Part shown: in pieces, positions 2,351-43,940 of the stretch
Position numbering within the stretch: the stretch's first letter is position 1
Layout: every line of letters starts with the position of its first letter
Position numbers and translations under genes: made by a program
The notes under the pieces: model-generated
Told to the model about the DNA's origin: nothing
Seen by the model: only the letters and a program-made list of their open reading frames with translations
The model's database searches: none
Assembly: GCA_951406725.2 (NCBI GenBank)
Contig: OX597817.1
Coordinates: 129,022,001-129,086,000, forward strand
Direction of reading: 5' to 3'
Source: Octopus vulgaris
Lineage: Eukaryota
Length of the DNA: 64,000 nucleotides

Positions 2351-5300
2351 GATGAAAATTTTGATGAAAATTTTCAAAAGACTTGAAAATTTTCATCAAA
2401 ATTTTTGAAAAATATTTCTGAAAATTTTCATCAAAATTTTGGAAATGTTTTTCGCAAATTTTCTTGAAAAGTTTTGAAAATTTTCATGAAAATTTTTGAA
2501 AATATTTCTGAAAATTTTCAGGAAAATTTTCGAAATGTTTTTCGCAAATTTTCTTGAAAATTTTGAAAATTTTCATGAAAATGTTTGAAAAGTTTTTTGA
2601 AAATTTTCATCAAAACTTTTGAAAAGGTTTTTGAAAACTTTCATCAAAATTTTCATCAAAATTTTGGAAAGTTTTTTGAAAATTTTCATCAAAAGTTTTG
2701 AAAAATTATCACGAATTTTGATGAAAATTCTCAAAAACCCTTTCAAAATTTTGATGAAAATTTTGAGAAAATTCTTTGAACTTTTGATGAAAATTTTCAA
2801 AGTTATGAAACTTTTCATCGAAATTTTTGATTTTTGAAATTTTTGAAACTTTTCATCGAAATTTTTGAAACTTTTCATCGAAATTTTTGAAACTTTTCAT
2901 CGAAATTTTTGAAACTTTTTCTGAAACTTTTTGAAACGATTTTTGAAAATTTTCATCAAAATATTTGAAAAGTCTTTTGAAAATATCCATCAAAATTTTT
3001 GAAAAGTTTTCTGAAAATATTCATGAAAATCTTTGAAACCTTTCATCAAAATGTTTGAAAAGTTTCATGAAAATCTTCATTAAAATATTGGAAAATTTTT
3101 TGAAAATGTCCATCAAATGTCCATCAAATACATACATACATACATACACACAGGGTGTAACAGGTAAATTGAGACCATTTAAATATTTTTATTATAATTG
3201 GTATAACTCGGAAACTCAAACACTGCAAATTTTATATTTATGCCAACTTATTGTGGAGTGTTTAGTACCTACTTCAGTTCAATGTTACCACCATTTAATC
3301 TCTTTGTCAGTTCAATCCGTTTATGAAATGATGCGCATGTCTTAAGTATTTCAAAAATTTTGATGAAAATATTCAAAAAACGTTTCAAAATTTTGATGAA
3401 AATTTTCAAAATACTTTTCAAAAAACGTTTCAAAAATTTTGATGAAAATTTTCAAAAAACTTTTCTAAAATTTTGATGAAAATTTTCAAAACACATTTCA
3501 AAAATTTTGATGAAAATATTCAAAAAAACGTTTCAAAATTTTGATGAAAATTTTCAAAATACTTTTCAAAAAACGTTTCAAAAATTTTGATGAAAATTTT
3601 CAAAAACTTTTCTAAAATTTTGATGAAAATTTTCAAAACACATTTCAAAAATTTTGATGAAAATATTCAAAAACGTTTCAAAATTTTGATGAAAATTTTC
3701 AAAAACCTTTTCTAAAATTTTGATGAAAATTTTGGCAAAGCTTTCAAAAATTTTTGAAAGGATTTTCTATAAAGTTTTTGAAAATTTCTTTGAAAATTTT
3801 CGTCAAAATTTTTGAAAAGTTTTCTGAAAATTTATCAAAATGTTGATGAAAAGCTTCAAAAACTTCAAAAATTTTGATGAAAATTTTCAAAGAAATTTTC
3901 AAAAATTTTATAGAAAATTATCAAAAAACTTTTCAAAAATTTGGACGAAAATTTTCAAAAGACTTTTCTAAAATTTTGCTGAACATTTTCCAAAAATTTT
4001 TCAAACATTTTGATGAAAAGTTTCAAAAATTTTCATGAATATTTTCAGAAAACTTTAAAAAATTTTGATGGATATTTTCAAAAGACTTTTCAAATATTTT
4101 GATGAAAATTTTCAAAAAACGTTTCAAAATGTTTCAGAAAAAGTTTCAAAAATTTCGATGAAAAGTTTCAAAAATTTCGATGAAAAGTTTCAAAAATTTC
4201 GATGAAAAGTTTCAAAAATTTCGATGAAAAGTTTCAAAAATTTGAAAATTTTCGTCAAAATTTTCATCAAAACTTTTGAAAGGTTTTTTGAGAATTTTCA
4301 TCAAAACTTTTGAAAGGTTTTTTGAGAATTTTCATCAAAATTCGTGATAATTTTTCAAAACTTTTGATGAAAATTTTCAAAACACTTTTTTATAATTTTG
4401 ATGAAAATTTTCGAGTATTTTGATGATAATTTTCAAAGAACTTTTCAAACATTTTCTTGAAAATTTCCAAGAATTTTCAAGTAAATTTGCGAAAAACATT
4501 TCGAAAATTTTCCTGAAAATTTTCAGAAATCTTTTCAGAAGTTTTGGTGAAAATTTTCGAAAGACTTTCAAAAATTTTGATGAAAATTTTATAACTTTTC
4601 AAAGTTGTGGATGAAAATTTTCAGAAAAATTTTTAAAAATTTTGATGGAAATTTTCAAAAATCTTTTCAAAAATTTTGATCGAAATTTTCAAAAAACTTT
4701 TCAAAAATTTTGATGAAAATTTTCAAAACACATTTCAAAAATTTTCATGAAAATTTTCAAAAAACATTTCAAAATTTTGATGAAAATTTTCAAAATACTT
4801 TTCAAAAAACGTCTCAAAAATTTTGATGAAAATTTTCAAAAACCTTTCCAAAATTTTTTTTTAATTTTGATGAAAATTTCCCAAAAAGTTTCAAAAATTT
4901 TGATGGAAATTTTCAAAAATCTTTTCAAAAATTTTGATCGAAATTTTCAAAAAACTTTTCAAAAATTTTGATGAAAATTTTCAAAACACATTTCAAAAAT
5001 TTTGATGAAAATTTTCAAAAAACATTTCAAAATTTTGATGAAAATTTTCAAAATACTTTTCAAAAAACGTCTCAAAAATTTTGATGAAAATTTTCAAAAA
5101 CCTTTCCAAAATTTTTTTTTAATTTTGATGAAAATTTCCCAAAAAGTTTCAAAAATTTTGATGAAAATTTTCAAAAAACTTTTCTAAACTTTTGATGGAA
5201 ATCTTGGCAAAGCTTTCAAAAATTTTTGAAAATTTTCTTCAAGACTTTTGAAAGTTTTTCGAAAATTTTCCTCAAAATTTTTGAAAAGTTTTTTGAAAAT

Positions 5301-5580
5301 TTATCAAAATGTTGGTGAAAAGCTTCAAAAAACTTCAAAAGTTTTGATGAAAATTTTCAAAGAAATTTCAAAAATTTTATAGAAAATTATCATAAAACTT
5401 TTCGAAAATTTTGAAAAAAAGTTTTTTGAGAAGATTATCGAAAATTTTGAAAAAAAGTTTTTTGAGAAGATTATCGAAAATTTTGATGAAAATTTCCAAA
5501 AAATTTTCGAAAATCTTCTCAAAAAACTTTTTTTTCAAAATTTTCGAAAATTTTTTGAAAATTTTCATCAAGATTTTAGA
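2350..5580. repeat. A/T-tract satellite or foldback array built from about 11-12-bp units (AAAATTTTCATC / GATGAAAATTTT / AAAATTTTTG)
   Basis: Hundreds of degenerate quasi-palindromic units. About 2810-3060 is the reverse complement of about 4000-4240. About 4630-4890 is tandemly duplicated at about 4890-5160. The array is interrupted at about 3130-3345. Confidence 0.9.
3150..3345 (+). mobile_element. Possible Tc1/mariner 5' terminal fragment inside the satellite
   Basis: Begins CAGGGTGTAACAGGTAAATTGAGACCATTT, which resembles a CAGGGTG-type TIR, after a (TACA)n tract. No coding part was recognised. Confidence 0.35.
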
Positions 5581-6584
5581 AAATGAGTTGTGTGAAATGC
5601 ATAGATGTTTATATAGGGAATCGCAGTGTTGCTCATTTTATAAATAACTTTTCCTTTGGTACCAAATATGTTTCGATAGCCACGTAGCGTTCTTTCTACG
5701 TGTATATTATAGTGCAAATGATTGTGTTGTATATGTCTGGTTTTGAAAGTCTCGCTTTAATACAATTCAGTTATTATGTTTTTCTGTCTTGTTTTATCGT
5801 TACTATGTCGATTACTTTTTATCAATTTCCACTTGACGGACATCGTTTTGATCAGTTGCAAGTGTGTCTATTTGAAGCTGAGTGTTTATATCACCTGATT
5901 TTGGTCTCTTAATAAAGAGTTAGTCCACCATAAGGAATTCCAACCGTAGTAATCATGTTGTTCCACCTGAAATGTGTGATTTGAGGAAGATTTAGATGTT
6001 ATTTCTCGTACTTTGAGGGTCACTCTTCATTTCCAGTCAAATTATATTGAAGATGATGTTACTGCCGATTTTAAATATATTTGAATCTTAACATTCTGTT
6101 TCTTTGAACAATCACTAAGTGGCTCAATTTTGTCATAGGTTGCTGAATCAGTGTGTTAATATTTGCTTTTTAGTTTTAATAAATATTCATAGTGGCTGAT
6201 ACTTCTGTTCGAAGCAAATATATATTTATTAAAAGCTCAAATTACAGTGTGAGAGTGACACATACGCAGAATAACACATCTATATGCTCTGTATATACAT
6301 ACGCAGACTCACATATACATAAGAGTCAATAAATGTCTATGTCTATGTGTATGAATATTTGTGTCGATATATGTATTTAAGTATACATATGTATATAAAG
6401 ATATATATAAAGTTGAGAGAGTTTTATTGAATGTCGTACATAACACACAAGAAAGAGAAAGAAAACAATGTCTTAGTAGCAATTGCTAGCAACTCTGAAG
6501 AGAAAGGGGAGGTAATATCAAGAAACCAAGAACAATATCATAATAGAATTTAGGGAAACAAATTTGCTTGGAGGCAAAGGACAT

Positions 6585-6629
6585 CTATGGACATATAGCT
6601 TCGGTCGTGATTTTACATCGTCAACATAG
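6585..6629 (-). ncRNA. Degenerate minimal type-I hammerhead-like motif (PLE pLTR remnant)
   Basis: Minus strand reads CTATG-TTGACGA-TGT..ACC-GAAG-CTATATG-TC-CATAG. Stem I (CTATG/CATAG) is perfect, but the core carries two substitutions. Confidence 0.4.
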
Positions 6630-7070
6630 TGTATGCAACTTCGTGTCTAGACCTGGTTTAAAATTTTAAGACTTATGAAAATGTTTAGTACAAGAGTAAA
6701 GTGCAAATATAAAGCAAAGCAATATAAGAGGAAATAACACAAATGAGCCACTGGCATGTTAATTCAATTTTGGATTTTAAGTTCGTAAATTATCTCCCCT
6801 TCTCCTACGAAGTAACTAAATTTCTGTTGATTTTTCTTTTTCTTTTCGTTCTTAAAGAGAAGTTTCAATAAATAAGGATTGTATTTGCTAATCAGTTCAC
6901 TTCATCTCATTACTTAAGTGCCTGGGCATCTTTGAATTATGTTCCTGTAGTGCTTTTGAGTTTTAACAATATTTTCTATAAAACTCCTCCTTTACGTTTA
7001 TATAAGCCATGTTTATCCAAGACACTAACCAAATGCGTTTTAATCTAATCAGTCGGCTGATGCTACTTCA

Positions 7071-7273
7071 TACGCCGGGCGAAATGCTTAGCGGTATTTC
7101 GTCTGCCGCTACGTTCTTAGTTCAAATTCAGCCGAGGTCGACTTTGCCTTTCATCTTCTCGGAGTCGATAAATTAAGTACCAGTTATGCACTGGGGTCGA
7201 TGTAATCGACTTAATCCGTTTGTCTGTCCTTGTTTGTCCCTTCTGTATGTAGCCCCTTGTAGGCAGTAAAGAA

Positions 7274-7275
<2 letters not shown>
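7071..7275 (+). mobile_element. SINE family B (tRNA-related head, MetaSINE-like central domain), 5'-truncated
   Basis: Variant of GTCGACTTTGCCTTTCATCCTTTCGGGGTCGATAAATTAAGTACCAG with the tail GTAAAGAAATA. Many copies occur in the window. Confidence 0.8.
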
Positions 7276-7306
<31 letters not shown>

Positions 7307-7803
7307 TGCATGCATGCATGCATGTATGTATGTATTGATGGATGGATGGATGAATAGATGGATGGGATCATTGAAGAGCTAGCATCAAACTTCAGAATTG
7401 GGAACTATAACAGTTACTTAAATGTTTGTCACTGCATATACCCAAAGGAATTACACATTCACCACAGCAAAAGCTCAGGTAGAGACAAGCATTAGCTTGT
7501 ATTAAACGGCACGTGCCTTTCTAATCTTGGGCATAGGACTTGAGAAGTATAAATGGAGTGGAGGCAAATGTATTCCATAAACACTTGGATATCCTAAAAT
7601 CTGAGAACTCAGATGAACCAATATCAACTGAAGGGACAATGGGTGGAAGTATTAATCTACATTATTCACAAGAAGACAAAAGGAGATTGCAATGTTAGTA
7701 GCAGTACCATAGGTGGTGGTCCAGCGTAACTGTCACACTTGCTAAAACTAGAAAAACAAATGTAAATATTTAAATACATACATACATGCATGTATATATA
7801 TAT

Positions 7804-7892
<89 letters not shown>

Positions 7893-8753
7893 TAGGCACA
7901 CATACGCTCACGCACACATACATAGATGTACATATATATGATGAGAACATGTCTGTGCTTATGAGTGTATGTGGTTTTAAAACTTTATTAACTTCATTCC
8001 ATTTAACTGTTTCTTTATAACCCCATTAAAAAGTAATAAAAAGGTATTGTGATTAAATATGGACATTAGGAAAGCAATAAAACTACTTCTAGTTATCTAA
8101 TGGCAGGGGCAAACCTCTATCATACACACACAATATATATATACATACATACATACATATATAAAGTATGTATACATATACATACATACATATACATATA
8201 CATGTATATGTATATACACATATACACTCATGCATATGTATACACATATATATACACGAACACACACTCACAAACATATATATAAGTGATGGTGTCTCTG
8301 TGTGTTTTATGTGCATGTGTATAAGCGTGTGTGTGTGCTTGTGTTTTGTTAACCTTGAAAGACCACATGACAAGAGAGCTATACATAGTGTTTATGTGCA
8401 TATAGCTTCTCTTGAGCAATAGTGTCCTCCATGCTCAGCGGTGTGCACCTATGTTCATAGGGTTCAAAATCCATTTTAAACCAATGTACAATGGTGCAGT
8501 CACTGTTGCTGATGTCCCTGGCCAAATTGCGAGCGACATTTATAAAAAAAAATATACTTGAAAAAACAAGTCGGGGTTGTAGAGTAATGTCAAGACTCGT
8601 CGTAGAGAAGTTTTACAAAACTGATAAAGGACAACTGCTGAAATTGGCCTTTACAAATTCATAACCGAGACTGAGTCGACAGCCAGTATATGGGCACAGG
8701 CGTGTGTGTATGTGTGTGTGTGTGTGTGCGTGCGTGTTTGTGTGTGTGTGCAG

Positions 8754-8836
<83 letters not shown>

Positions 8837-8845
8837 GTGTGTGTG

Positions 8846-9530
8846 TAATTAAATAATAAGGGTAGAAATTGATATTAATCAATTAAAACCAGTGGCTTAG
8901 CATATTTTAAAAATCCGAAGATTAAAAATTGTGTTACATGCAAAATTTAGAGGAATGACCACTAGAGTGGACACCCTATATGCTAAAAATAGACGTCAAA
9001 TCGTCATTACCACGAGGAATATGTTCTCAAGAAAAAATTTCAGCAAAACGCCAAAATGTAAAAATAAGCAAGACAAATGAAAATATACGAAATAAAAAAC
9101 GATTACCTACATACCATGGTTTCACTTGTTATTATTTACGTATATGAACCCGCTAATATCTGCAAGATCATCAGCATAGTCTGTCGCTTACAAAACACAA
9201 TTCCCAGAACTAAATACAAAACGCTCAATCGAAATCGAGCATGTATAAACTTCTACAAATTATATTTGGGTGTATTTTTCAAATGCCTTCACTTTGGCGC
9301 GTGGAGGTCGGAAATTACTCTGCAGTTAATAAATTACAGCAACCAATTTACCGGTTAGAGAACATTTTTTATTTTAAATTAAATAATAAGGGTAGAAATT
9401 GATATTAATCAATTAAAACCAGTGGCTTACCATATTTTTTTTAAAATCCGAAGATTAAATATTGTGTTACATACAAAATTTAGAGGTAAGACCACTAGAC
9501 TGGACACCCTATATGCTAAACATAGATGTC
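8846..9530 (-). mobile_element. Solo PLE pseudo-LTR with a partial tandem (about 150-bp direct repeat at 8846-8997 and 9377-9530)
   Basis: The direct repeat AATTAAATAATAAGGGTAGAAATTGATATTAATC... occurs twice, a hammerhead motif lies between the copies, and the unit abuts (GT)n. Confidence 0.65.
9107..9179 (-). ncRNA. Type-I hammerhead ribozyme, canonical core
   Basis: Minus strand reads CTATG-CTGATGA-T-CTTG(34-nt loop)CAAG-T-GAAA-CCATGG-TA-TGTAG. Stem III is the palindrome ACCATGGT and the cleavage triplet is GUA. Confidence 0.75.
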
Positions 9531-9799
9531 ATCTTAGGTCAGTGTGCAGCCATTTAATAATAGTGATGTAATTATGAGATAGTTTCAAAGCCAACGCCGC
9601 ATTTATATCTCTCCTCATATTTCCATTCTTCATCTTTCCACGTCTCTTCTATATAGTCATCATGATCACAATGATAATGATGGTTATCGTCATCATCTTT
9701 GTCATAGTCATTCTCATGAGCGATCCGCCGTTTTCTTTCTATCTTCATTTCTACTGTCAATATATGTGCTCAGAAAATAATACATTCCTATATGCATAC

Positions 9800-10300
9800 T
9801 CAAATTCATAAGAGAAAGGGGACATCTATGAATCATTGATAAGGAGTTTGCAAATCCAGTATCCAAGATACACTTACAGCTTCACACCTATTAATATTGG
9901 AACAACAGGATACATACCAATCCGTCTAGAGCGAAGTATATATTTCTTTACTAGCCATAAGGGGATAAACACAGAGGGGATAAACAAGGATAGACAAACG
10001 GATTAAGTCGATTATATCGACCCCAGTGCGTAGCTGGTACTTAATTTATCGACCCCGAAAGGATGAATGGCAAAATCGACCTCGACGGAATTTGAACTCA
10101 GAACGTAACGGCAGACGAAATACGGCTACGCATTTCGCCCGGCGTGCTAACGTTTCTGCCAGCTCGCCGCCTAGATCAAAGTATAACCGAACTTAGGATT
10201 TTGGAGAGAGAAAGCAAATCCTTAATTCATATGCTACAAATGATCACGATATCTAGGACTATAAAAAGTTGCAAGACCTTAAGATTTAAAGGAAGATGAC
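9800..10300 (+). pseudogene. C-terminal remnant of a restriction-like-endonuclease non-LTR retrotransposon (R4/NeSL-like), split by a SINE
   Basis: Manual translation gives IYESLIRSLQIQYPRYTYSFTPINIGTTGYIP, then after the SINE ESKSLIHMLQMITISRTIKSCKT. This resembles the RLE C-terminus. Confidence 0.4.
9941..10172 (-). mobile_element. SINE family B, full length
   Basis: Reverse complement of GGCGGCGAGCTGGCAGAAACGTTAGCACGCCGGGCG...GTAAAGAAATA. Confidence 0.85.
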
Positions 10301-11269
10301 TAAAACAAGATACTTTCCTATACAACATTGCCCCCATGTATTTGTTTTCCTAGAATATTGATTACAAATTCAATGATTCATATTTGCATGATAACATGTA
10401 TAATACAGAATAGGGACTGCATTAATATACATCATCTCCCTGCGTAATTTTATGCATTTTTTACTATGATTGTTGGTTTGAAATACATATTCACTATGAA
10501 GTTTAGCTTAAATAATATAATGACTCCGTTATAAGAACGTATGTCTGATTGAGCGGTTTAGTTTGGAGCAAAGGGTATTCGATGTCGGTCCTAGTGCGTG
10601 GTACTACGGCACTGAAGTTTCTTTTTTACCGTATTCTACAGTTGACTTGTAAAAGAAAATTGGTAGACGTAAGTATATTGTATTTGTCTGTGTCTATGGC
10701 TAAGTATTTATTTCTTGCAATTTTCCCGGACTTTGTCGACTTTTAGAAGACTCTCGCTGCTTCTATCGGTATAGGACCCGAAGAGCCCAACAATTCGATC
10801 ATTTGATAAACTGAAGTCGAAAGTAAGGTAAATAAGTACTGGAGTCGATATAATTTATTAAAACCCATAAAGGTCGCATTCCAATGACTGAAACAGTAAA
10901 AGTATAACACAATAAATACCAGTTTGAGATAGAAAAGGAAACTAGTATTTTCTACTTGCTGAGAGACCGCATTATCTATTATGCAGTAGTACACTATGAA
11001 ATGCTTACCATATTAAGTGGTAAAGAGTACTCGAAATTTAAGGTAGATATTGAGATGTATTAAGGTTTGTGTTACATCATTTTTTGAATTCGAAGGACTT
11101 AGAACCTGAAAAATTGTAAACAAAAAGATATATTAAGAAAGAAAATTAGAAGTAAAACTTAAAAAATGAATACATGTATCTGCATGTAAGTGTGTGCGCG
11201 TGTGTATATGAATATATATGCGTACGTATGTATATATATATGTGTGTATGTATGTGTATGTGTGTATAT

Positions 11270-11494
11270 ACTCCTTTTACTCTTTTTACTTGTTTCAGTC
11301 ATTTGCCTGTGGCCATGCTGGAGCACCGACTTTAATCGAGCAAATCGACCCCAGTACTTATTTTTTGTAAGCCTAGTACTTATTCTATCGGTCTCTTTTG
11401 CCGAACCGCTAAGTGACGACGACGTAAACATACCAGCATTGGTTATCAACCGATGTTGGGGAGACAAACACAGACACACAAGCATACATACACA

Positions 11495-11526
<32 letters not shown>

Positions 11527-11527
11527 T

Positions 11528-11585
<58 letters not shown>

Positions 11586-11745
11586 GACGGGATTCTTTCA
11601 GTTTCCGTTTACCAAATCCACTCACAAGGGTTTGGTCGAGCCGAGGTCATAGTAGAAAACACTTGCCCAAGGTGCCACGCAGTGGGACTGAACCCGGAAC
11701 CACGTGGTTGGTAAACAAGCTACTTACCACACAGCTACTTCTACG

Positions 11746-11748
<3 letters not shown>
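11270..11748 (-). mobile_element. SINE family A (tRNA head, CORE-like CTTGGGCAAGT, internal (TA)n(TG)n, tail GACTGAAACAAGTAAAA)
   Basis: Near-identical to copies at 30355-30799, 56838-57270 and 63311-63720. A-box-like and B-box-like (GGGTTCAGTCCC) motifs are present in the head. Confidence 0.85.
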
Positions 11749-11816
<68 letters not shown>

Positions 11817-11889
11817 GGCCCATATATATATAAAATAATTGGCCCTTTTTGTCTATGCAGACGGTCAATTTAGCTTAAAGGTCACTTAA

Positions 11890-14330
11890 TCGAATATACC
11901 AGGGGCTTCTTTCCTTCCAGCTTCTTTCATGGCTGATTCTTCCTATGATAAAAGCGCAGCTTCTGTCACATTACTTGCATACCAAGAGGGTGGCTCGGCG
12001 CTCTGCATTTCTGTTGTTTTCCTTTCGCCGCCGACGCTTCTCAACTTGTTTGTTTCTGCCGCTGCTCTTTAGTGAAGCAGATCCTTCCTTCACCACAGTC
12101 CTCCTTGTTATTCTGTCCTCAGCCTTCTCTTCCCAGGTGCCGACATCCACCTTACACTTGGACAAACTAGTTTTGCAAGTGTCCTTATACCTCAGTTTTG
12201 GTCTTCTTCTTGGTCTCTTGCCCTGGTCCAGTTCTCTATAGAGCAATTGCTTCGGGATTTGATGGTCATCCATTCCCTTGACATGTCCCAACCACCTCAG
12301 TCTTCTCATACACAAGATAGCTGTCATGCTTTGAAGATTCGACTGGGCCAGTACTTCAACATTGGTGACCTTGTCGCGCCATATTAAGCCTAAGATCTTG
12401 CAAAGGCATCTTTCCTGTCTGCTGTACAAGGTCCATGCGTCAGATACATAGAGGAGTGTGTTGAGAACACTTGCTTCATAAATCCCAATCTTTGTCTTGA
12501 TCTCTAATCTCTTGTTCTTCCATACTCGCTTTGTCAGCCTTCCAAAAGTTGTTGCTGCCTTCCCTGTCCTGACGTTAACCCCATCAAGTGAAGTATTAGA
12601 GGAAATGGTAGACCCTAGATAGCAGAACCTGTCCACTGTCTTTGTCATCAAGGTTGATATGGCCTTTCACTGTGCCCTCCTGAGTGAAAATGACAGTCTT
12701 CTTTACACTGATGACCAAACCGAAGGCCTTGCATGCTGATGATAGGTGGTCCATCATTATTTATAGAGTTAATTCACTGTGAGCAACAAGCGCCGCATCG
12801 TTGGCGAAGAGAAAGTCTCTTATTGCTGCTCTATTGTTCTTGGTCTTGTCCCGAAGTGTAGAAAGATCAAAGAGGGACCCATCAGTTCTCCAACAAAAGG
12901 AGACATCTCCCGGTGACTCTTGAAATGCATACTGCAGCAATACAGCAAAGTAAATGCTGAAAAGGATTGGTGCTAAGACACAACCTTGTTTTACTCCGCT
13001 GTTGATGTTGAAGCTATCTGATATTAAACCGTCAAACTGAATGGTAGCCTTCATGTCATCATGGAACGAAACAATGAGCTGCAGCAGTATTGGGGGGCAG
13101 TCACATTTTCCAAGCACCATGTACAGTCCTGATCTGCTAATTGTATCAAATGCCTTTGTCAGATCGATAAATGCTATATATACTGGTAATTGATGTTCCG
13201 GCATTTTTCTTGTAGTTGACGAATGGAGATCATATCCATAGTTGAGCGGTTAGATCTAAAACCGCGCTGGCTCTCTGGTAGTACTCTTTCTGCTAGCTTC
13301 TGAAGTCGTTTCATAATGATCCTCGCAAAAGCTTTTCCAGTGATGCTCAGCAGTGAGATGCATCTGTAGTTATTGGAATCTCCCTTTTCCCCTTTATTTT
13401 TGTAGAGAGTGATGATCTTGGGATCTCTCATATCCTGTGGAATTTTTACTTCCAGCCAACACGTCTTTAGTAACTTGTATAAATGTGGAAGGAGGACATC
13501 TTTGTTCTCTTTCAACGCTTTAGCAGGTATATTGTCATTTCCGGGTGCTTTTCCGCTTGCAAGTCCATCGATTGCATTGGAGAGTTCTTCCGTTGGTGGT
13601 ATATTAAGTTCTTTCATTTCGGGGAACTGAGGAATGGATTCATCAAGCTGTCTATCAACATCTCGCTCCTTTGTGTGCAATTTAGAGTAATGTTCCACCG
13701 ATCTTTCCATTTGTTTCTTCTTGTCCGTCAACTGGTCACCTGTTGCAGACTTGAGAGGTGCAACTTTACTCACTGTTGGTCCGATAGCAACTCTAATCTA
13801 AGGCGGCGAGCTGGCAGAATCATTAGCACGCCGGGCGGAATGCCTAGCGGTATTTCGTCTGCCGCTACGTTCTATGTTCAAATTCCGCCGAGGTCGACTT
13901 TGCCTTTCATCCTTTCGGGATCGATAAATTAAGTACCAGCTACGCACTGGGGTCGAGATAATCGACTTAATCCGTTTGTCTATCCTTGTTTGTCCTCTCT
14001 GTGTGTAACCCCTTGTGGGCAGTAAAGAAATAAGCAACTCTAATCTTCTCATACATTTTCCTTATGTTACCCATATATCTCGCCTATTGAATTTCTAAGC
14101 CTTATTTAACCACTTACTGGTTGGCACATTTTCTAGTTTCTATTTGAAGGCTGGATTTTGCAGCACGTAGCTGTTGTTTAGTACTTTCTGTTGGCTTTCT
14201 ATTGTGTTTTATGAATATCTTGTGCTTTTCCTCAAGTAATGGCATTAGTATTGATGCATTGGCTTCGATCCAGTCCTCCTTGGAAAGTCAATCCGCTCCA
14301 AAGTCCCTCGACGCAGAGTAATCATATATT
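11890..14330 (-). pseudogene. RTE-clade LINE, 5'-truncated and frameshifted reverse transcriptase
   Basis: ORFs 13174-13773, 12761-13204 and 11971-12651 give KAPGNDNIP, NYRCISLLSITGKAFAR, FIDLTKAFD, GVKQGCVLAPILF, FLFAND (degenerate YADD), FCYLGS, RRLRWLGHV and PKQLLYREL...PKLRYKD. Confidence 0.92.
13800..14032 (+). mobile_element. SINE family B inserted in the RTE, with a 14-bp TSD
   Basis: AGCAACTCTAATCT occurs at both 13786-13799 and 14033-14046. Confidence 0.9.
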
Positions 14331-38327: not shown

Positions 38328-38550
38328 AGAGCAAGCACATAAATGTGAAACAAGGTGGAAAAAAGAGTACTCAAATACCAGAGGTAGAGTAATATGCTTT
38401 ATTTAAAAGCAGCCGAAATATAACAAAAGCTGTTACTCAGAGTTTCGGACAGTTTTGTTCGGACAGCTCACAAAACTGTCCGACGAACGGGAACGTGAAA
38501 CTCCGAGTAACAGCTTTTGTTATATTTCTGCTGCTTTTAAATAAAGTATG
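38326..38550. mobile_element. Head-to-head foldback pLTR element next to (TA)n
   Basis: 38393-38446 is the reverse complement of 38496-38550. A hammerhead motif lies in the right arm and an internally deleted copy in the left arm. Confidence 0.75.
38476..38513 (+). ncRNA. Minimal type-I hammerhead ribozyme (CCGACGA core variant)
   Basis: CTGT-CCGACGA-ACG-GGAA-CGT-GAAA-CTC-C-GAG-TA-ACAG. All three stems are perfect and the triplet is GUA. Confidence 0.75.
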
Positions 38551-39786: not shown

Positions 39787-40023
39787 GTGTATACTCTTAC
39801 TCTACTCTTTTACTTGTTTCAGCCATTTGACTGCGGCCGTGCTGGAGCACCGCCTTTAGTCGAGCAAATCGACCCCGGGACTTATTCTTTGTAAGCCCAG
39901 TACTTATTCTATCGGTCTCTTTTGCCGAACCGCTAAGTTACGGGGACGTAAACACACCAGCATCAGTTGTCAACCAATGCTAGGGGGACAAACACAGACA
40001 CACAAACACTTAAACATACATAC

Positions 40024-40085
<62 letters not shown>

Positions 40086-40260
40086 GTTTAAATATTTGTT
40101 GTGCAAGATTTTTTATGTGAAGTCGTGTGTTGAAACAGATATTGTTATATTTCGGAATGGTCATATTGCCAGTTTAGCCAATAAAAACACACGCACTATA
40201 TATTTGGTGTTATTTTGCTTCAGTGATATTTATTTTTTACATTAATCTTAATCTTATTTC

Positions 40261-40305
40261 GGCCAAAGTTCTTTCGTCACACTCCTGTGACCGCATCAGT
40301 GGTCC
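40261..40305 (-). ncRNA. Variant type-I hammerhead ribozyme in the PLE pLTR
   Basis: Minus strand reads GGACCA-CTGATGC-G-GTCAC-AGGAGT-GTGAC-GAAA-G-AA-C-TT-TGGCC. Stem II is a perfect 5 bp. The core has A9C plus one extra nucleotide. Predicted cleavage is after CUU, between 40266 and 40265. Confidence 0.65.
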
Positions 40306-40824
40306 TTTGTTTTCTTCTCACTTACTTGTGTCTCTCCTTACTAACCGTCAGCCATTTTGTATTTCTATTGTATGTCTTCATTTGCGCATGCTTATATCTC
40401 TATGTGCGTCTATGTTTATTTAGTGTGTGGGGGGGATGTCTGTAATATTTGTATCTTCTGGTTATATACATTCTTGTAATTTGTATTTTGTTTTTGTTGT
40501 TGTTGCTTTTGTTCTAATTTTGTTCATGTGTTTACATCCACCCATTATTATCATTACATATGCTTGTATGTATGTATAACAACAATATTAGTAATAATAA
40601 TAATAAATCTAATCGAGAAAAAAAAAAAAAAAAAAGAATATACATATACATATATATATATATATATATACATACACATACATATACATATATATATATA
40701 CATATATACACACATATATACACATATACATATACATATATATACACATATACATACACATAGATATTCATTTCTATTTCTTTAATTACCTGTGTATTTA
40801 TTATGTTTGCAGGATCCACTATTG

Positions 40825-42998
40825 TCATATGTTGTGGTGTGCGCTATTGCTCCATTCTAGTTTTCTATTCAGGCTAGGTTTATTTTCTATTATATGTGTA
40901 GCTTCTGTAATTTGTCTAATTGTTGCATCTGTTCTATGTGTGGACAATATCTTAATCTCTATGTTATTGATTGATCCCCCGTGTTCTTGTTCGGCGTGTT
41001 GGTACAGAATCGATGAGCTTTTACCTTCCTTGAGTTGTCTCCAATGTTCATTCACCCGCTCACCAATGCTTCTTGCAGTTTCCCCTACGTATGTTACTGT
41101 CTTGTTACTGCATCGTCCCTCTATACATCTTATACTATAGACCACATTTCTGGCTTTACAGTTCGTTTGTGGGCTAAATCTACATACAGTGCAATAGTTA
41201 TCCGTACAGAGAGTTCTACTAAAAGGATAGGTTCTACCAATTATAGATCTGATAGGGTTGCCTGGCTTTTCAACAACCTTAATTCTTAGTTTAAGTTTAT
41301 CTAGGGTCCTTCTAAAGCGGTACGCTAGTTCACCTCCAGGGGTGGTGTCAACGAACATGACACTCTGGTATTTATGGCTATCATACCAAGAGTTGGCCTT
41401 CCTTATTTTCTTTTTTGTCCTTTCTATAGTGTTCCATGACTTGTTCCTATAGAGTGGGCAAATCCCATTCCTATCATTACATAATATATTATCAAATTTC
41501 TTCATGGCTCCTTTGTATACTCTGATCCTTTCTTTATGGCTGTAACCTGAGAACTGCATGCGGTGAATGAAATACTGTATGTGTCTCTTTAATTCTGTAG
41601 GCTCGCACATGCGTGACACATTTCTCATTATTCTGACGAGGTCTGCCATCAAAATATTGAATTTGGCATTGCCCGCAATGGCTGAGTTCCGGTGGATCAG
41701 GTATTTTGAGGCCATAGGTTTTGCATAGTATGAATGAAGGATTTGGGTTTTATTTTTCACAATTTCTAGCCAGAGTTCAGTGTCTAGTACTGGTAGTCTA
41801 TGGTTGGGGTGTTTAATGGGGTAGTCTATTGTGACCTTAATACTCTGGTGGATGGAGTTAGCTATTTGCTGGATGCTCTCCATAGTATTAGTTTCTATTA
41901 CTATATCAACCGTACTCTCTTGTGGGGGTGCCTTTACTACTATATTGATATCATCAACATAGCGAGAGTACATGTTTACGAGTATGGATTTCTGCAGTAG
42001 GCATTCTTTAAGCCTTCTGTCCCACCATACCATGAAGAGGTTGGCCACATCACCAGCGATACTAACACCGATGGCTGCCCCCTCGTCCTGGGCATATATT
42101 TTATTATTAAATTTAAATGTGTGGCCTTTTAGGGTAACTCTTATACTAGCTCCTAGTGCATGTGCGATCATTTTCTTTACCTGATGGACATTTGCGGGGC
42201 TCCGTATGGCTCTGGTCCATCCGCGCCATCTTTCTATATGTGTCTTCCTAGCCATAGAAGTAATTGTAGGCGGTCTACCTCTTAAACATCTACTGGGGCA
42301 GAAACTACTAAGATTATGTTTATCTAAGTATTCACTATTATATGTCAGTCTAAGTAGGAGGCCCAGTTCTTCTGTGTCGACATTACAGAACTCCACCTGG
42401 CTCTCGTTGATCATCTCCACGCACTTCTCCACTGCAAAATCTACGTCAATCGATGGGTATAGGGATACCACATCCATGCTACCTACTATACATCCTGTCA
42501 AGTCACAAGTTTTGTTACAGTCACTGATCCTGCTTAGGAGATCTTCTGTGCTGTCACATACATCAGGTGACATCCTGATTATAGGGCGTATGATCATTGA
42601 GAGGAAGTAGGAGATTCTGTAATTGCTAGCGATATTCGCTCCACAGACTGGTCTTGTTGGTGGTCCTGCTATAGGGTCAGTAAAACCTTTATGGTCCTTG
42701 CGAAGTCCATACAGTGCCGGGATATCATTGTTCCAGGCTTGGAAATTCTTTGCAGTACGTTTCTGAGGTCCCAGAACAATTGTCCACATCATCATGTGGG
42801 CATTGAGGACCTTTTCTCTCTCCTCATGCGCCTGTACAGTTGTTACTTTTGTATTGGCGATATGAGGTTGCATTGCCTGGATGTAGTTCGGTAAGCTGTC
42901 TATTGACATCCTGCCTGACTTATCCGTGGGAAGGCATATCACCTCTCCGTTCCTCGTGCGCTGAATGAGCTTCTGTAGGCCACATGCAGGTTTAATCC
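40825..42998 (-). CDS. PLE reverse transcriptase plus C-terminal GIY-YIG endonuclease; uninterrupted, N-terminally truncated, possibly Naiad clade
   Basis: [30 protein letters not shown] (motif A), [17 protein letters not shown] (B'), YSRYVDDI (C), LPVLD (E), Cys linker [11 protein letters not shown], and NVVYSIRC...[16 protein letters not shown]...RQITEA..I....PSLN. The first 15 aa of the tracked ORF (to 43044) come from the inverted repeat. Confidence 0.95.
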
Positions 42999-43120
42999 CT
43001 TTGGCCGAAATAAGATTAAGATTAATGTAAAAAATAAATATCACTGAAGCAAAATAACACCAAATATATAGTGCGTGTGTTTTTATTGGCTAAACTGGCA
43101 ATATGACCATTCCGAAATAT

Positions 43121-43176
<56 letters not shown>

Positions 43177-43940
43177 GACAGGTTTCTTTCAGTTTCCGTC
43201 TACCAAATCCACTCACAAGGCTTCAGTCGGCCCGGGGCTATAGCAGAAGACACTTGCCCAAGATGCCACGTAGTGGGACTGAACCCGGAACCATGTGGTT
43301 GGTTAGCAAGCTACTTACCACACAGCCACTCCTGCGCCTATGTAGTGAATTTTAGAAGCGGCTTTAACACTTGAGGACTTAGCCAATATTATAACTGTTA
43401 GATTCCTCATACAGATAATTTTCTTTCATGAGTAAAGTTTTGTGTAGAACCAACCACATATTTTGGAACTGCTGTGAGTACAAAGTTGGTGCAAAAGTTA
43501 GCCATAAACTCAATGAGCAACGTACCCCAGACTTTTCCATTAGAGTTCTTTATGTCCTGGCTTAGTAGGTTTCGCCAAATCTAAGAGTCCATCCTTCCCT
43601 GTTAGCCTCTTAGGCTAAATGTGCCTCTAGGCACCAAAGCAGAAACTACTAAGTCCCCGTTCAAGTTTACACACTCAAACACACGCGCGAGCGCACATTC
43701 ATAAATATCAGACAATGGGAATACCTGCTGAAAAACGTATTATTGAATAAAGATAAAAATTCATTATTTGTGTATTAAGGCTACCACTAGTTTCAACAAT
43801 TATCAAGCCATTCACATGGGGCATAGATGTTCGTCTCTATTTTGGATTAAAACACTTATGTCCCATGTAATAGGTATTATAAATGTTAAGGTATTCCTTA
43901 ACAGGAAACCAGTGGTAGCCTTAAAACACAAATATATTAT

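What the first reader, a model, noticed from the sequence alone, without database searches (positions are those of the whole stretch)
40085..43128. The inverted 5' segment of a young Penelope-like element starts at its own hammerhead cleavage site, suggesting ribozyme-defined two-ended insertion
Seen: 42999-43128 is a perfect 130-bp reverse complement of 40139-40268. The insertion is therefore two cDNAs joined head-to-head, with both 3' ends pointing out into the (TA)n target. The short cDNA's 5' end (CTT|TGGCCGAAA) falls within about 3 nt of the predicted cleavage site (40266/40265) of the hammerhead-like motif at 40261-40305. Its 3' end stops inside the pLTR at AACAATAT, which is microhomologous to (TA)n, about 55 nt short of the long copy's 3' end. 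Established: PLEs carry minimal hammerheads in pLTRs and often have inverted 5' pLTR pieces. Inference: each side of the (TA)n break primed reverse transcription internally at an AU-rich site, and one cDNA ran off at the ribozyme-cut RNA 5' end. This would be genomic evidence that the variant ribozyme cleaves in vivo and sets the inversion breakpoint.
Basis: partly seen in the sequence, partly recalled or inferred. Interest (0 to 1): 0.85.

Follow-up and report, generated by a model that had tools for sequence, protein, structure and literature searches.

The report
Penelope retrotransposon with inverted arm
This is a young, shortened copy of an octopus Penelope-like jumping gene with the usual short inverted arm; the arm starts beside a ribozyme cut site, but nothing here shows that the ribozyme made that end.

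Summary
Observation confirmed: 42999-43128 is a perfect 130-nt inverted copy of 40139-40268, head-to-head with a 5'-truncated, stop-free 724-aa Penelope-like RT/GIY-YIG frame, inserted in the (TA)n of a SINE-like repeat. Close copies are Octopus vulgaris gene models. The anatomy (inverted, shorter 5' pLTR; 'tail' on one end; microsatellite target) is the published standard. The short 3' end at 40139 recurs in other copies, so it is the family's tail boundary. The hammerhead-like motif is real (1 hit in 64 kb; 7 of 16 relatives have one at this place) but has C at position 9 and a non-palindromic helix III, so activity is doubtful. The arm runs 1-3 nt past the cut site, including the minority U17 allele, and shares 1-2 nt with the ORF: ordinary microhomology joining explains it. 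No junction row at the cut site appeared among 23 shown of 600 loose-end rows, so a peak is neither seen nor excluded. Chance that cleavage set this junction: about 25%. The scan raised the same idea on another genome (e1-9850483; mild enrichment only). Side finding: this lineage has a telomerase-length insert between RT motifs 3 and 4 despite a C-terminal endonuclease.

The parts
39790..40015 (+). Left half of a composite SINE-like repeat (the target)
   Evidence: Both halves lie together, separated only by a TA/CA tract, in 5 other window copies; the label SINE is recalled, not from a call
40016..40084 (.). Left (TA)n target tract
40085..40138 (-). 54-nt 'tail', present only on the long copy; the last two letters (CG) also follow (TA)n in the target repeat
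   Evidence: two X9 contigs match through 40085 (table 8)
40139..40268 (-). Part of the 3' pLTR that is duplicated in the inverted arm
40084..40164 (-). ATG at 40164 and 27-codon frame MTIPKYNNIC..., probable start of the element's ORF repeated in the pLTR and tail
   Evidence: Inferred: 29 and 41 contigs diverge exactly beyond the ATG; L001 and L004 have a TGCGTGT motif, ATG and (TA)n in the same order. Protein-level tests were not significant
40260..40305 (-). Minimal type I hammerhead-like motif: CUGAUG-C-G, 6-bp helix II, GAAA-GAAC-UU; predicted cut 40266/40265; C at position 9; helix III not palindromic
   Evidence: family variation
40306..40824 (-). 3' non-coding region with an internal U-run and TA/CA microsatellite (about 40617-40767); candidate intron 40789-40609, untested
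40825..42999 (-). 5'-truncated, uninterrupted 724-codon ORF: telomerase-like RT (DKS, SMD at aa 173-175, YVDD at 346-349), CX4CxxC linker (597-605), GIY-YIG-type endonuclease with C624/H651/H667/H672
42999..43001 (.). Junction letters: 42999 shared by arm and ORF; 43000 shared if the upstream Leu codon ends in A; 43001 equals U17 of the pLTR and is not ORF-derived
42999..43128 (+). Inverted 130-nt pLTR arm (short cDNA), ending at AACAATAT
43129..43175 (.). Right (TA)n target tract
43176..43345 (+). Right half of the composite SINE-like repeat

Best explanation
A recent insertion of a high-copy octopus C-terminal-endonuclease Penelope-like element. Shown: a 5'-truncated body and a 130-nt inverted pLTR piece sit head-to-head inside a (TA)n tract; the short piece ends at a 3' site that many copies share, the long piece 54 nt further on. 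Inferred from PLE biochemistry: the endonuclease nicked both strands of the TA tract; each 3' end primed reverse transcription internally on the element RNA, at one of two preferred sites just inside the ORF start (their distance is the tail); the long cDNA stopped after about 2.9 kb, the short one after about 130 nt on RNA that was not cut, inside the folded hammerhead core; the two cDNA 3' ends were joined through 1-2 nt of microhomology. The closeness to the cut site is chance, or a mild preference for stopping in structured RNA.
For: Same anatomy in print: inverted, shorter 5' pLTR, tail on one end, pLTR holding the first codons of the ORF, microhomology at 5' junctions (PMC3846280; PMC8557442). 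Both-strand nicking at AT-rich DNA, two internal RT start sites that define the tail, and no need for hammerhead cleavage (PMC11167929). Recurrent (TA)n-joined end at 40139 in 3 of 4 runs; L001 and L004 end in (TA)n at the like place. The arm carries the three letters 5' of the cut exactly as the uncut RNA has them, including U17 where 65-77% of family depth has C. At least 1 nt is shared with the ORF. No loose-end row at 40260-40272 among 23 shown; table 6 empty; the two opposite-strand joints shown lie elsewhere. In 4 of 44 related loci with inverted pieces, 3 begin inside the ORF, 1 just upstream of the first ORF match, none at a hammerhead.
Against: The position is a 0.2-2% event under simple length models. 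All three overhang letters can also be explained on a cut template (one or two untemplated A plus ORF letters). 577 of 600 loose-end rows and 9 of 24 joint rows were not shown, and contigs drop rare forms. Two replaced or skipped segments among the 15 joints shown have an end at 40260-40272. The junction is 7 nt short of helix II and past helix I, so a simple hairpin stall does not fit exactly. The related-locus inversions lie at contig ends and may be assembly effects. Two-ended priming itself is inferred: an antisense self-priming model is also in print. Microhomology with the target at the long end is not established.
Confidence: 0.7

Rival explanations
1. One reading: the hammerhead cut the template at 40266/40265, the short cDNA ran off the new 5' end, gained one or two untemplated A residues, and joined the long cDNA at the ORF's Leu/Gly codon boundary.
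For: Junction within 1-3 nt of the cut; chance 0.2-2%. The motif is a true positional homologue of PLE hammerheads (7 of 16 relatives, 0 in 7902 nt of opposite strand). Its two common family variants keep it cleavable in principle (U17/C17; G-C to G-U at the end of helix I). The anole PLE ribozyme cleaves only with its protein, so poor RNA-only folding is not fatal.
Against: Needs three overhang letters to match the uncut template by luck (roughly 1 in 10-25, my arithmetic). C at position 9 and helix III AGAACU, which gives only 2 bp as a dimer (+1.4 kcal/mol against -0.2 to -5.1 for 7 of 7 palindromic relatives). No cut-site row among the shown loose ends. No RNA ends at the cut and no effect of ribozyme mutants in the anole element.
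Confidence: 0.22
2. The arm did not come from a second target-primed cDNA but from fold-back or self-priming (for example on an antisense template), or from a template jump from the long cDNA to its own pLTR during second-strand synthesis or repair.
For: Self-priming on an antisense template was proposed for head-to-head PLE inversions (PMC3846280). Arm and pLTR are identical even at sites where the family majority differs (40226, 40266), which fits copying from the same molecule. A 5-bp inverted repeat GGCCA/TGGCC spans the junction (42978-42982 and 43002-43006).
Against: The arm ends at the family's recurrent (TA)n-joined 3' site, as expected of an independent priming event; there is no long palindrome at the junction; in vitro both target strands are cut and extended. 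Identity is equally expected from one RNA or one young subfamily.
Confidence: 0.07
3. Assembly artefact: the inverted arm is a mis-join or chimeric read at a repeat.
Against: The arm's outer end is a boundary seen independently in three runs; the flanks rejoin into one target repeat; the structure is the standard PLE form.
Confidence: 0.02

Closest known systems
Canonical EN+ Penelope-like insertion with inverted 5' pLTR and one-sided tail (Pen2a_Av of Adineta vaga, PMC3846280; Fig. 2 scheme of PMC8557442)
   Same: Head-to-head inverted, shorter pLTR at the 5' end; tail on one end only; pLTR and tail probably holding the first ORF codons; microhomology at the 5' junction; AT-rich target.
   Different: Tail is 54 nt rather than 30-40; no direct upstream pLTR because the body is truncated in the ORF; a target duplication cannot be delimited inside (TA)n.
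Poseidon of Anolis carolinensis (PAc), in vitro mechanism (PMC11167929)
   Same: Two internal 3' ends near the ORF start defining a tail; both-strand, AT-rich target; hammerhead close to the start codon.
   Different: PAc starts RT at sites not homologous to the target, 111-118 nt and beyond into the ORF; here the short end is TA-like and about 26 nt after the probable ATG. Poseidon lacks the zinc-finger linker that this ORF has.
Minimal type I hammerheads of metazoan PLEs (PMC4209133)
   Same: CUGANG core, extra nucleotide before G10.1-C11.1, 6-bp helix II, short helix I and III, place in the pLTR.
   Different: C instead of A at position 9 (shared with closest relative L001); the six bases of helix III are not palindromic, unlike 7 of 7 relatives.
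Neptune and Nematis clades of PLEs (PMC8557442 and its supplementary Figs S1, S2, S7)
   Same: C-terminal GIY-YIG endonuclease, CX2-5CxxC linker, conserved Cys/His in the endonuclease, hammerhead, (TA)n target. The short spacing between linker and endonuclease resembles the Nematis rows.
   Different: DKS instead of DKG; RT motif 3-to-4 distance 132-138 aa in 108 of 108 measurable homologues against about 64 in canonical PLEs; no tree with reference clades could be built.

Membership tests
Penelope-like elements, C-terminal EN+ | Telomerase-like reverse transcriptase | tested here: met
   Model pLDDT 93; top 3 Foldseek and top 14 VIA rows are TERTs, best Z 16.2, rmsd 4.0, 285 aligned; Pfam RVT_1 only weak, E 0.0013
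Penelope-like elements, C-terminal EN+ | GIY-YIG endonuclease after the RT in one ORF | tested here: met
   VVY..YVG pattern with invariant R/H/E/N-type residues; Pfam GIY-YIG in 5 of 25 aligned members, not in the window protein itself
Penelope-like elements, C-terminal EN+ | pLTR, direct or inverted, with optional tail | tested here: met
Penelope-like elements, C-terminal EN+ | Hammerhead motif in the pLTR | tested here: met
   Single descriptor hit in the window; 7 of 16 relatives; variant core
Neptune/Nematis clades | CX2-5CxxC linker before the endonuclease | tested here: met
   C597, C602, C605 in 113/113, 114/114, 112/112 rows with a residue
Neptune/Nematis clades | CCHH motif in the endonuclease | tested here: met
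   C613, C624, H651, H667, H672 in all or all but one of the rows with a residue; C629 lies in an unevenly aligned loop (1 of 64 in that column); assignment of the four ligands is by comparison with Fig. S2 rows
Neptune/Nematis clades | DKG motif | tested here: not met
   DKS in 75 and DKT in 2 of 77 rows with residues, 40 of 117 gapped
Neptune/Nematis clades | No insertion in fingers between RT3 and RT4 | tested here: not met
   Spacing 132-138 aa in 108 of 117 rows measurable against about 64 counted by hand from Fig. S1 rows
Neptune/Nematis clades | Placement in the RT tree with reference elements | not testable with these tools
   Reference proteins were visible only as text in a supplement, not as stored sequences
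Naiad/Chlamys | N-terminal endonuclease | tested here: not met
   Endonuclease is C-terminal
Hydra clade | CCHH absent, CxCX5C linker, ORF short (<3 kb elements) | tested here: not met
   Cys/His conserved, CX4CxxC linker, full-length homologues above 1000 aa
PLE minimal hammerhead | Core C3 U4 G5 A6 N7 G8 and G12 A13 A14, extra base before G10.1-C11.1 | tested here: met
   features from PMC4209133; numbering recalled
PLE minimal hammerhead | A at position 9 | tested here: not met
   C at 40293, no other letter listed at 1% in four runs; 6 of 7 relatives have A, L001 has C
PLE minimal hammerhead | Palindromic positions 15.2-16.2 and loop 3 for dimer cleavage | tested here: not met
   AGAACU; 7 of 7 relatives palindromic
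PLE minimal hammerhead | Self-cleavage | not testable with these tools
   Needs RNA assay or raw RNA reads; all runs were contigs
TERT-like insertion in fingers (IFD) | Structural equivalence of the RT3-RT4 insert to the TERT IFD | tested here: inconclusive
   Insert is confidently modelled and largely helical, but fold searches give only whole-domain ranges and the single-sequence model of the piece failed, pLDDT 38

The most novel reading that the evidence does not exclude
The C9, non-palindromic hammerhead of this family does cleave in the cell, helped by the element's protein, and a distinct class of inverted arms begins where reverse transcriptase runs off the cut RNA. Genomic junctions would then be a fossil record of in vivo PLE ribozyme activity. 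The family's U17/C17 polymorphism makes this testable from an assembly alone.
Probability: 0.2. Interest if true: 0.65.

Novelty: new member of a known kind. Interest (0 to 1): 0.28.

Why it matters
The in vivo role of PLE hammerheads is an open question (PMC7761336 calls it 'still a mystery'; PMC11167929 found no need for it in vitro). One junction cannot settle it, but this family is a good test bed: it is young, has at least 55 near-identical gene models, and carries a natural U/C marker at the cut nucleotide that separates templated read-through from untemplated addition. Separately, a C-terminal-endonuclease PLE lineage with a telomerase-length RT insert would not fit the current clade scheme and bears on PLE-telomerase ancestry.

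Tried and rejected
No whole genome is held, so the direct junction census could not be run. Rfam: no hammerhead match. Depth profile drops across the cut site in X1 and X9 but not in X14 and X15; summed contig depth is not copy number, so it was not used. RNA: no RNA holder listed; no inference on expression. Gene models as junction witnesses: 0 of 182 proteins held a 7-residue word of the translated 40085-40600 region; they start at internal Met and are spliced. N-terminal peptide MTIPKYNNIC...: profile of 36 N-termini, 236 of 283 scored shuffles as good; pairwise against 6 nearer N-termini, 214 of 2000; database search, 0 of 488 candidates; the ORF-start call rests on position only. A 17-nt pattern in prokaryote genomes gave 54 matches, about the number chance gives, not read further; a 24-nt pattern in viral contigs gave 0. 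Conservation of the hammerhead within the family: 2 common variant sites in 46 nt against 17 in about 360 nt (counted by hand, table 3), no depletion, so not used as evidence of selection. No alternative helix III partner near the motif. Naiad, Hydra and Penelope/Poseidon membership rejected on domain order and motifs. Single-sequence fold of the RT insert failed. Lunse et al. 2017 and Arkhipova et al. 2017 could not be read; either may already list C9 variants. No paper reporting PLE junctions at the hammerhead cut appeared in the listings of searches; none on a C-terminal-EN PLE with an IFD in one search; the library lacks most subscription papers and Repbase/Dfam entries.

Full report
Observation. 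The inverted repeat is exactly as described: 40139-40268 and 42999-43128, 130 nt, 100% complementary. On the minus strand a stop-free frame of 724 codons runs from 42999 to 40825, followed by about 740 nt of non-coding sequence that ends at 40085 against (TA)n. The arm reads in element sense on the plus strand and ends at AACAATAT in a second (TA)n run, 54 nt short of the long end. The two flanks are the halves of one repeat that occurs uninterrupted, with only a TA/CA tract between the halves, at 5 other places in the window. The insertion therefore went into the TA tract and no flank is missing. Both TA runs are followed by CG, and together they are longer than the tract in any of the 5 uninterrupted copies, so a target duplication of (TA)nCG is possible but cannot be delimited.

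What the element is. The best protein match is an Octopus vulgaris gene model, 99% identical over 89% of the query; of 182 proteins examined, 55 are at least 98% identical over 100 or more residues of a core stretch and 26 are 85-98% identical. Three large DNA-type runs laid 4917-12958 contigs on the 516-nt pLTR stretch. It is a young, high-copy family, most likely in Octopus. The AlphaFold model from 117 sequences (pLDDT 93) matches telomerase RTs best. The C-terminus has a CX4CxxC linker and a GIY-YIG-type endonuclease. It is a C-terminal EN+ Penelope-like element; it works like Neptune/Nematis but fails two of their motifs (DKS for DKG; a long RT3-RT4 insert), so I do not file it in either clade.

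The anatomy is known. Craig et al. 2021 (PMC8557442; abstract, passages, sections 11 and 12, supplement searches and two parts) describe an inverted 5'-truncated copy and a 30-40 bp tail on one end as typical. Arkhipova et al. 2013 (PMC3846280; passages) describe a head-to-head, shorter inverted pLTR, a tail on one side, the first ORF codons inside pLTR and tail, and microhomology at a 5' junction; they proposed self-priming on an antisense template. Frangieh et al. 2024 (PMC11167929; parts 1-3 of 4, main text and methods; supplements not read) show both-strand cleavage of AT-rich DNA and RT initiation at two internal sites that define the tail; ribozyme mutants inserted normally, the ribozyme cleaved only with protein, and no RNA-seq reads began or ended at the cut.

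The short 3' end is a family landmark. Loose ends before 40139, with a consensus ending in (TA)n, stand in 15 of 465, 20 of 450 and 2 of 5 partly laid contigs of runs X1, X15 and X9; X14 has no such row among its six shown. The two nearest relatives with an intact end, L001 and L004, show a TGCGTGT motif, an ATG and then (TA)n about 20 nt later, as the window does with the ATG at 40164. So the '55 nt short' end is the tail boundary. That the ATG starts the ORF is inferred from position; three protein-level tests gave no support. TA-likeness is visible at the short end; at the long end it is not established.

The hammerhead. A relaxed descriptor finds one hit in both strands of the window, at 40299 on the element's sense strand, and hits 113-397 nt after the ORF match in 7 of 16 related loci (picked from 44 for having 3' sequence, near-duplicates left out), with 0 in 7902 nt of the opposite strands. 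The motif has the extra base before G10.1-C11.1 and the long helix II that Cervera and de la Pena report (PMC4209133; parts 1-2 of 4). It departs in two ways. Position 9 is C, fixed in the family at the 1% level and shared with the closest relative L001. The helix III hexamer AGAACU is not palindromic, whereas 7 of 7 relatives are; as a dimer it gives 2 bp at +1.4 kcal/mol. That loss of A9 slows hammerheads is recalled, not from a call. The two common variants inside the motif (U/C at 17; C/U at the end of helix I) are neutral for the structure, but overall variation is not depleted. The motif is a true homologue; whether it cleaves is open.

The junction. The cut maps to 43001/43002. The arm continues for three more letters that equal U17, U16.1 and C16.2. 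Other copies read Leu-Gly at this point (44 of 44 Leu), so 42999 belongs to both arm and ORF, 43000 does if the Leu codon ends in A (19 of 49 here), and 43001 does not. On an uncut template all three are copied and the join uses 1-2 nt of microhomology. On a cut template one or two untemplated A residues are needed and the ORF's G must match by luck, about 1 in 10-25 by my arithmetic. Against that, the position is a 0.2-2% event for a 7-nt window. The resulting likelihood ratio for this copy is about 10-20 in favour of cutting; with a prior of 1-5% that a given arm is cut-defined, the posterior is 10-50%. These figures are rough inference. U17 is the minority allele (C in 77, 77 and 65% of depth), and the arm has it too, which is the plain expectation for read-through but is mimicked by an added A.

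Population test, partial. Of 600 loose-end rows 23 were shown, the best supported; none lies at 40260-40272, while 40139, 40164 (29 of 465 and 41 of 473), 40327, 40364 and 40429 do appear. The table of places where many molecules begin or end was empty. Of 24 joint rows 15 were shown: two change strand, at 40223/40366 and 40375/40415; two events on one strand have an end at 40260-40272 (a replaced segment 40197-40269/40272 in three runs; a skip 40211-40260 in one). The ranking rule is not known and contigs drop rare forms, so a modest peak is not excluded; a dominant one is unlikely. In 44 related loci, 4 have inverted pieces; 3 begin inside the ORF and 1 just upstream of the first ORF match, none at a hammerhead, though they lie at contig ends.

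Verdict. An ordinary, young PLE insertion of published form. The ribozyme-defined breakpoint is possible, about one in four or five, and is testable on an assembly with the U17/C17 marker. Other papers seen: Weinberg et al. 2019 (PMC6765202; passages), de la Pena et al. 2020 (PMC7761336; passages), Li et al. 2026 (bioRxiv 10.64898/2026.07.22.740005; part 1 of 5; supplements closed). Lunse et al. 2017 and Arkhipova et al. 2017 were seen only as reference-list entries; they and the unread supplements of PMC4209133 may already contain C9 variants.

Side finding. The distance from RT motif 3 to motif 4 is 132-138 aa (median 135) in 108 of 117 aligned rows where it could be measured, against about 64 for Penelope, about 87 for a Naiad and about 121 for human TERT, counted by hand from Fig. 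S1. Craig et al. limit the insertion in fingers to N-terminal EN+ elements and some Coprina. A C-terminal EN+ lineage with such an insert did not appear in one search. Without a reference tree and a local superposition this stays a lead.

Noticed in passing
window 42081-42483 (ORF aa 172-306, minus strand): RT motif 3-to-4 spacing is about 134 aa, twice that of canonical PLEs and close to telomerase, conserved in 108 homologues with its own CPxR..GRPPT..RW..W motif; with DKS and a C-terminal endonuclease this may be an undescribed PLE lineage of marine animals.
   Followed up: partly
window 40164: 29 (X1) and 41 (X14) contigs match only from the ATG to the 3' end and continue into mixed sequence that begins with a run of about 12 T on the plus strand; sibling families, very short inserts or jumps onto poly(A) RNA are possible.
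   Followed up: no
window 40609-40789 (minus): Candidate 181-nt intron in the 3' non-coding part: CAG|GTAATT donor, 18-U tract and TAG acceptor, enclosing the microsatellite. PLEs are known to keep introns; untested.
   Followed up: no
window 40293 and L001 about 2490-2540: C at hammerhead position 9 plus an extra G is shared with the closest relative, which also has the U3-A8 swap; L026 shows an A3-U8 swap and L002 a U15.1-A16.1 pair.
   Followed up: partly
window 40084-40086 and 43175-43177: (TA)n is followed by CG on both sides of the insertion; the target repeat has (TA)nCG, so the long end may have used CG microhomology and duplicated part of the TA tract.
   Followed up: partly
window 40351-40360 (minus): CAAAATGGCT, a YY1-like motif (recalled), about 45 nt upstream of the hammerhead; possible promoter element.
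   Followed up: no
window 38413-38434 and 38509-38528: Short inverted pair resembling the element's 3' end (GCCGAAATATAACAA, 90% over 20-22 nt), about 100 nt apart; perhaps ends of another small repeat.
   Followed up: no
window 2352-5584: About 3 kb of degenerate tandem repeat with 11/22/34-nt periods (GAAAATTTTCA-like), GC about 23%.
   Followed up: no
P0159, P0324, P0326, P0282: Octopus gene models fuse pieces of this element to other copies or to host genes (heparan-alpha-glucosaminide N-acetyltransferase; a helitron-like domain); probably annotation artefacts.
   Followed up: no
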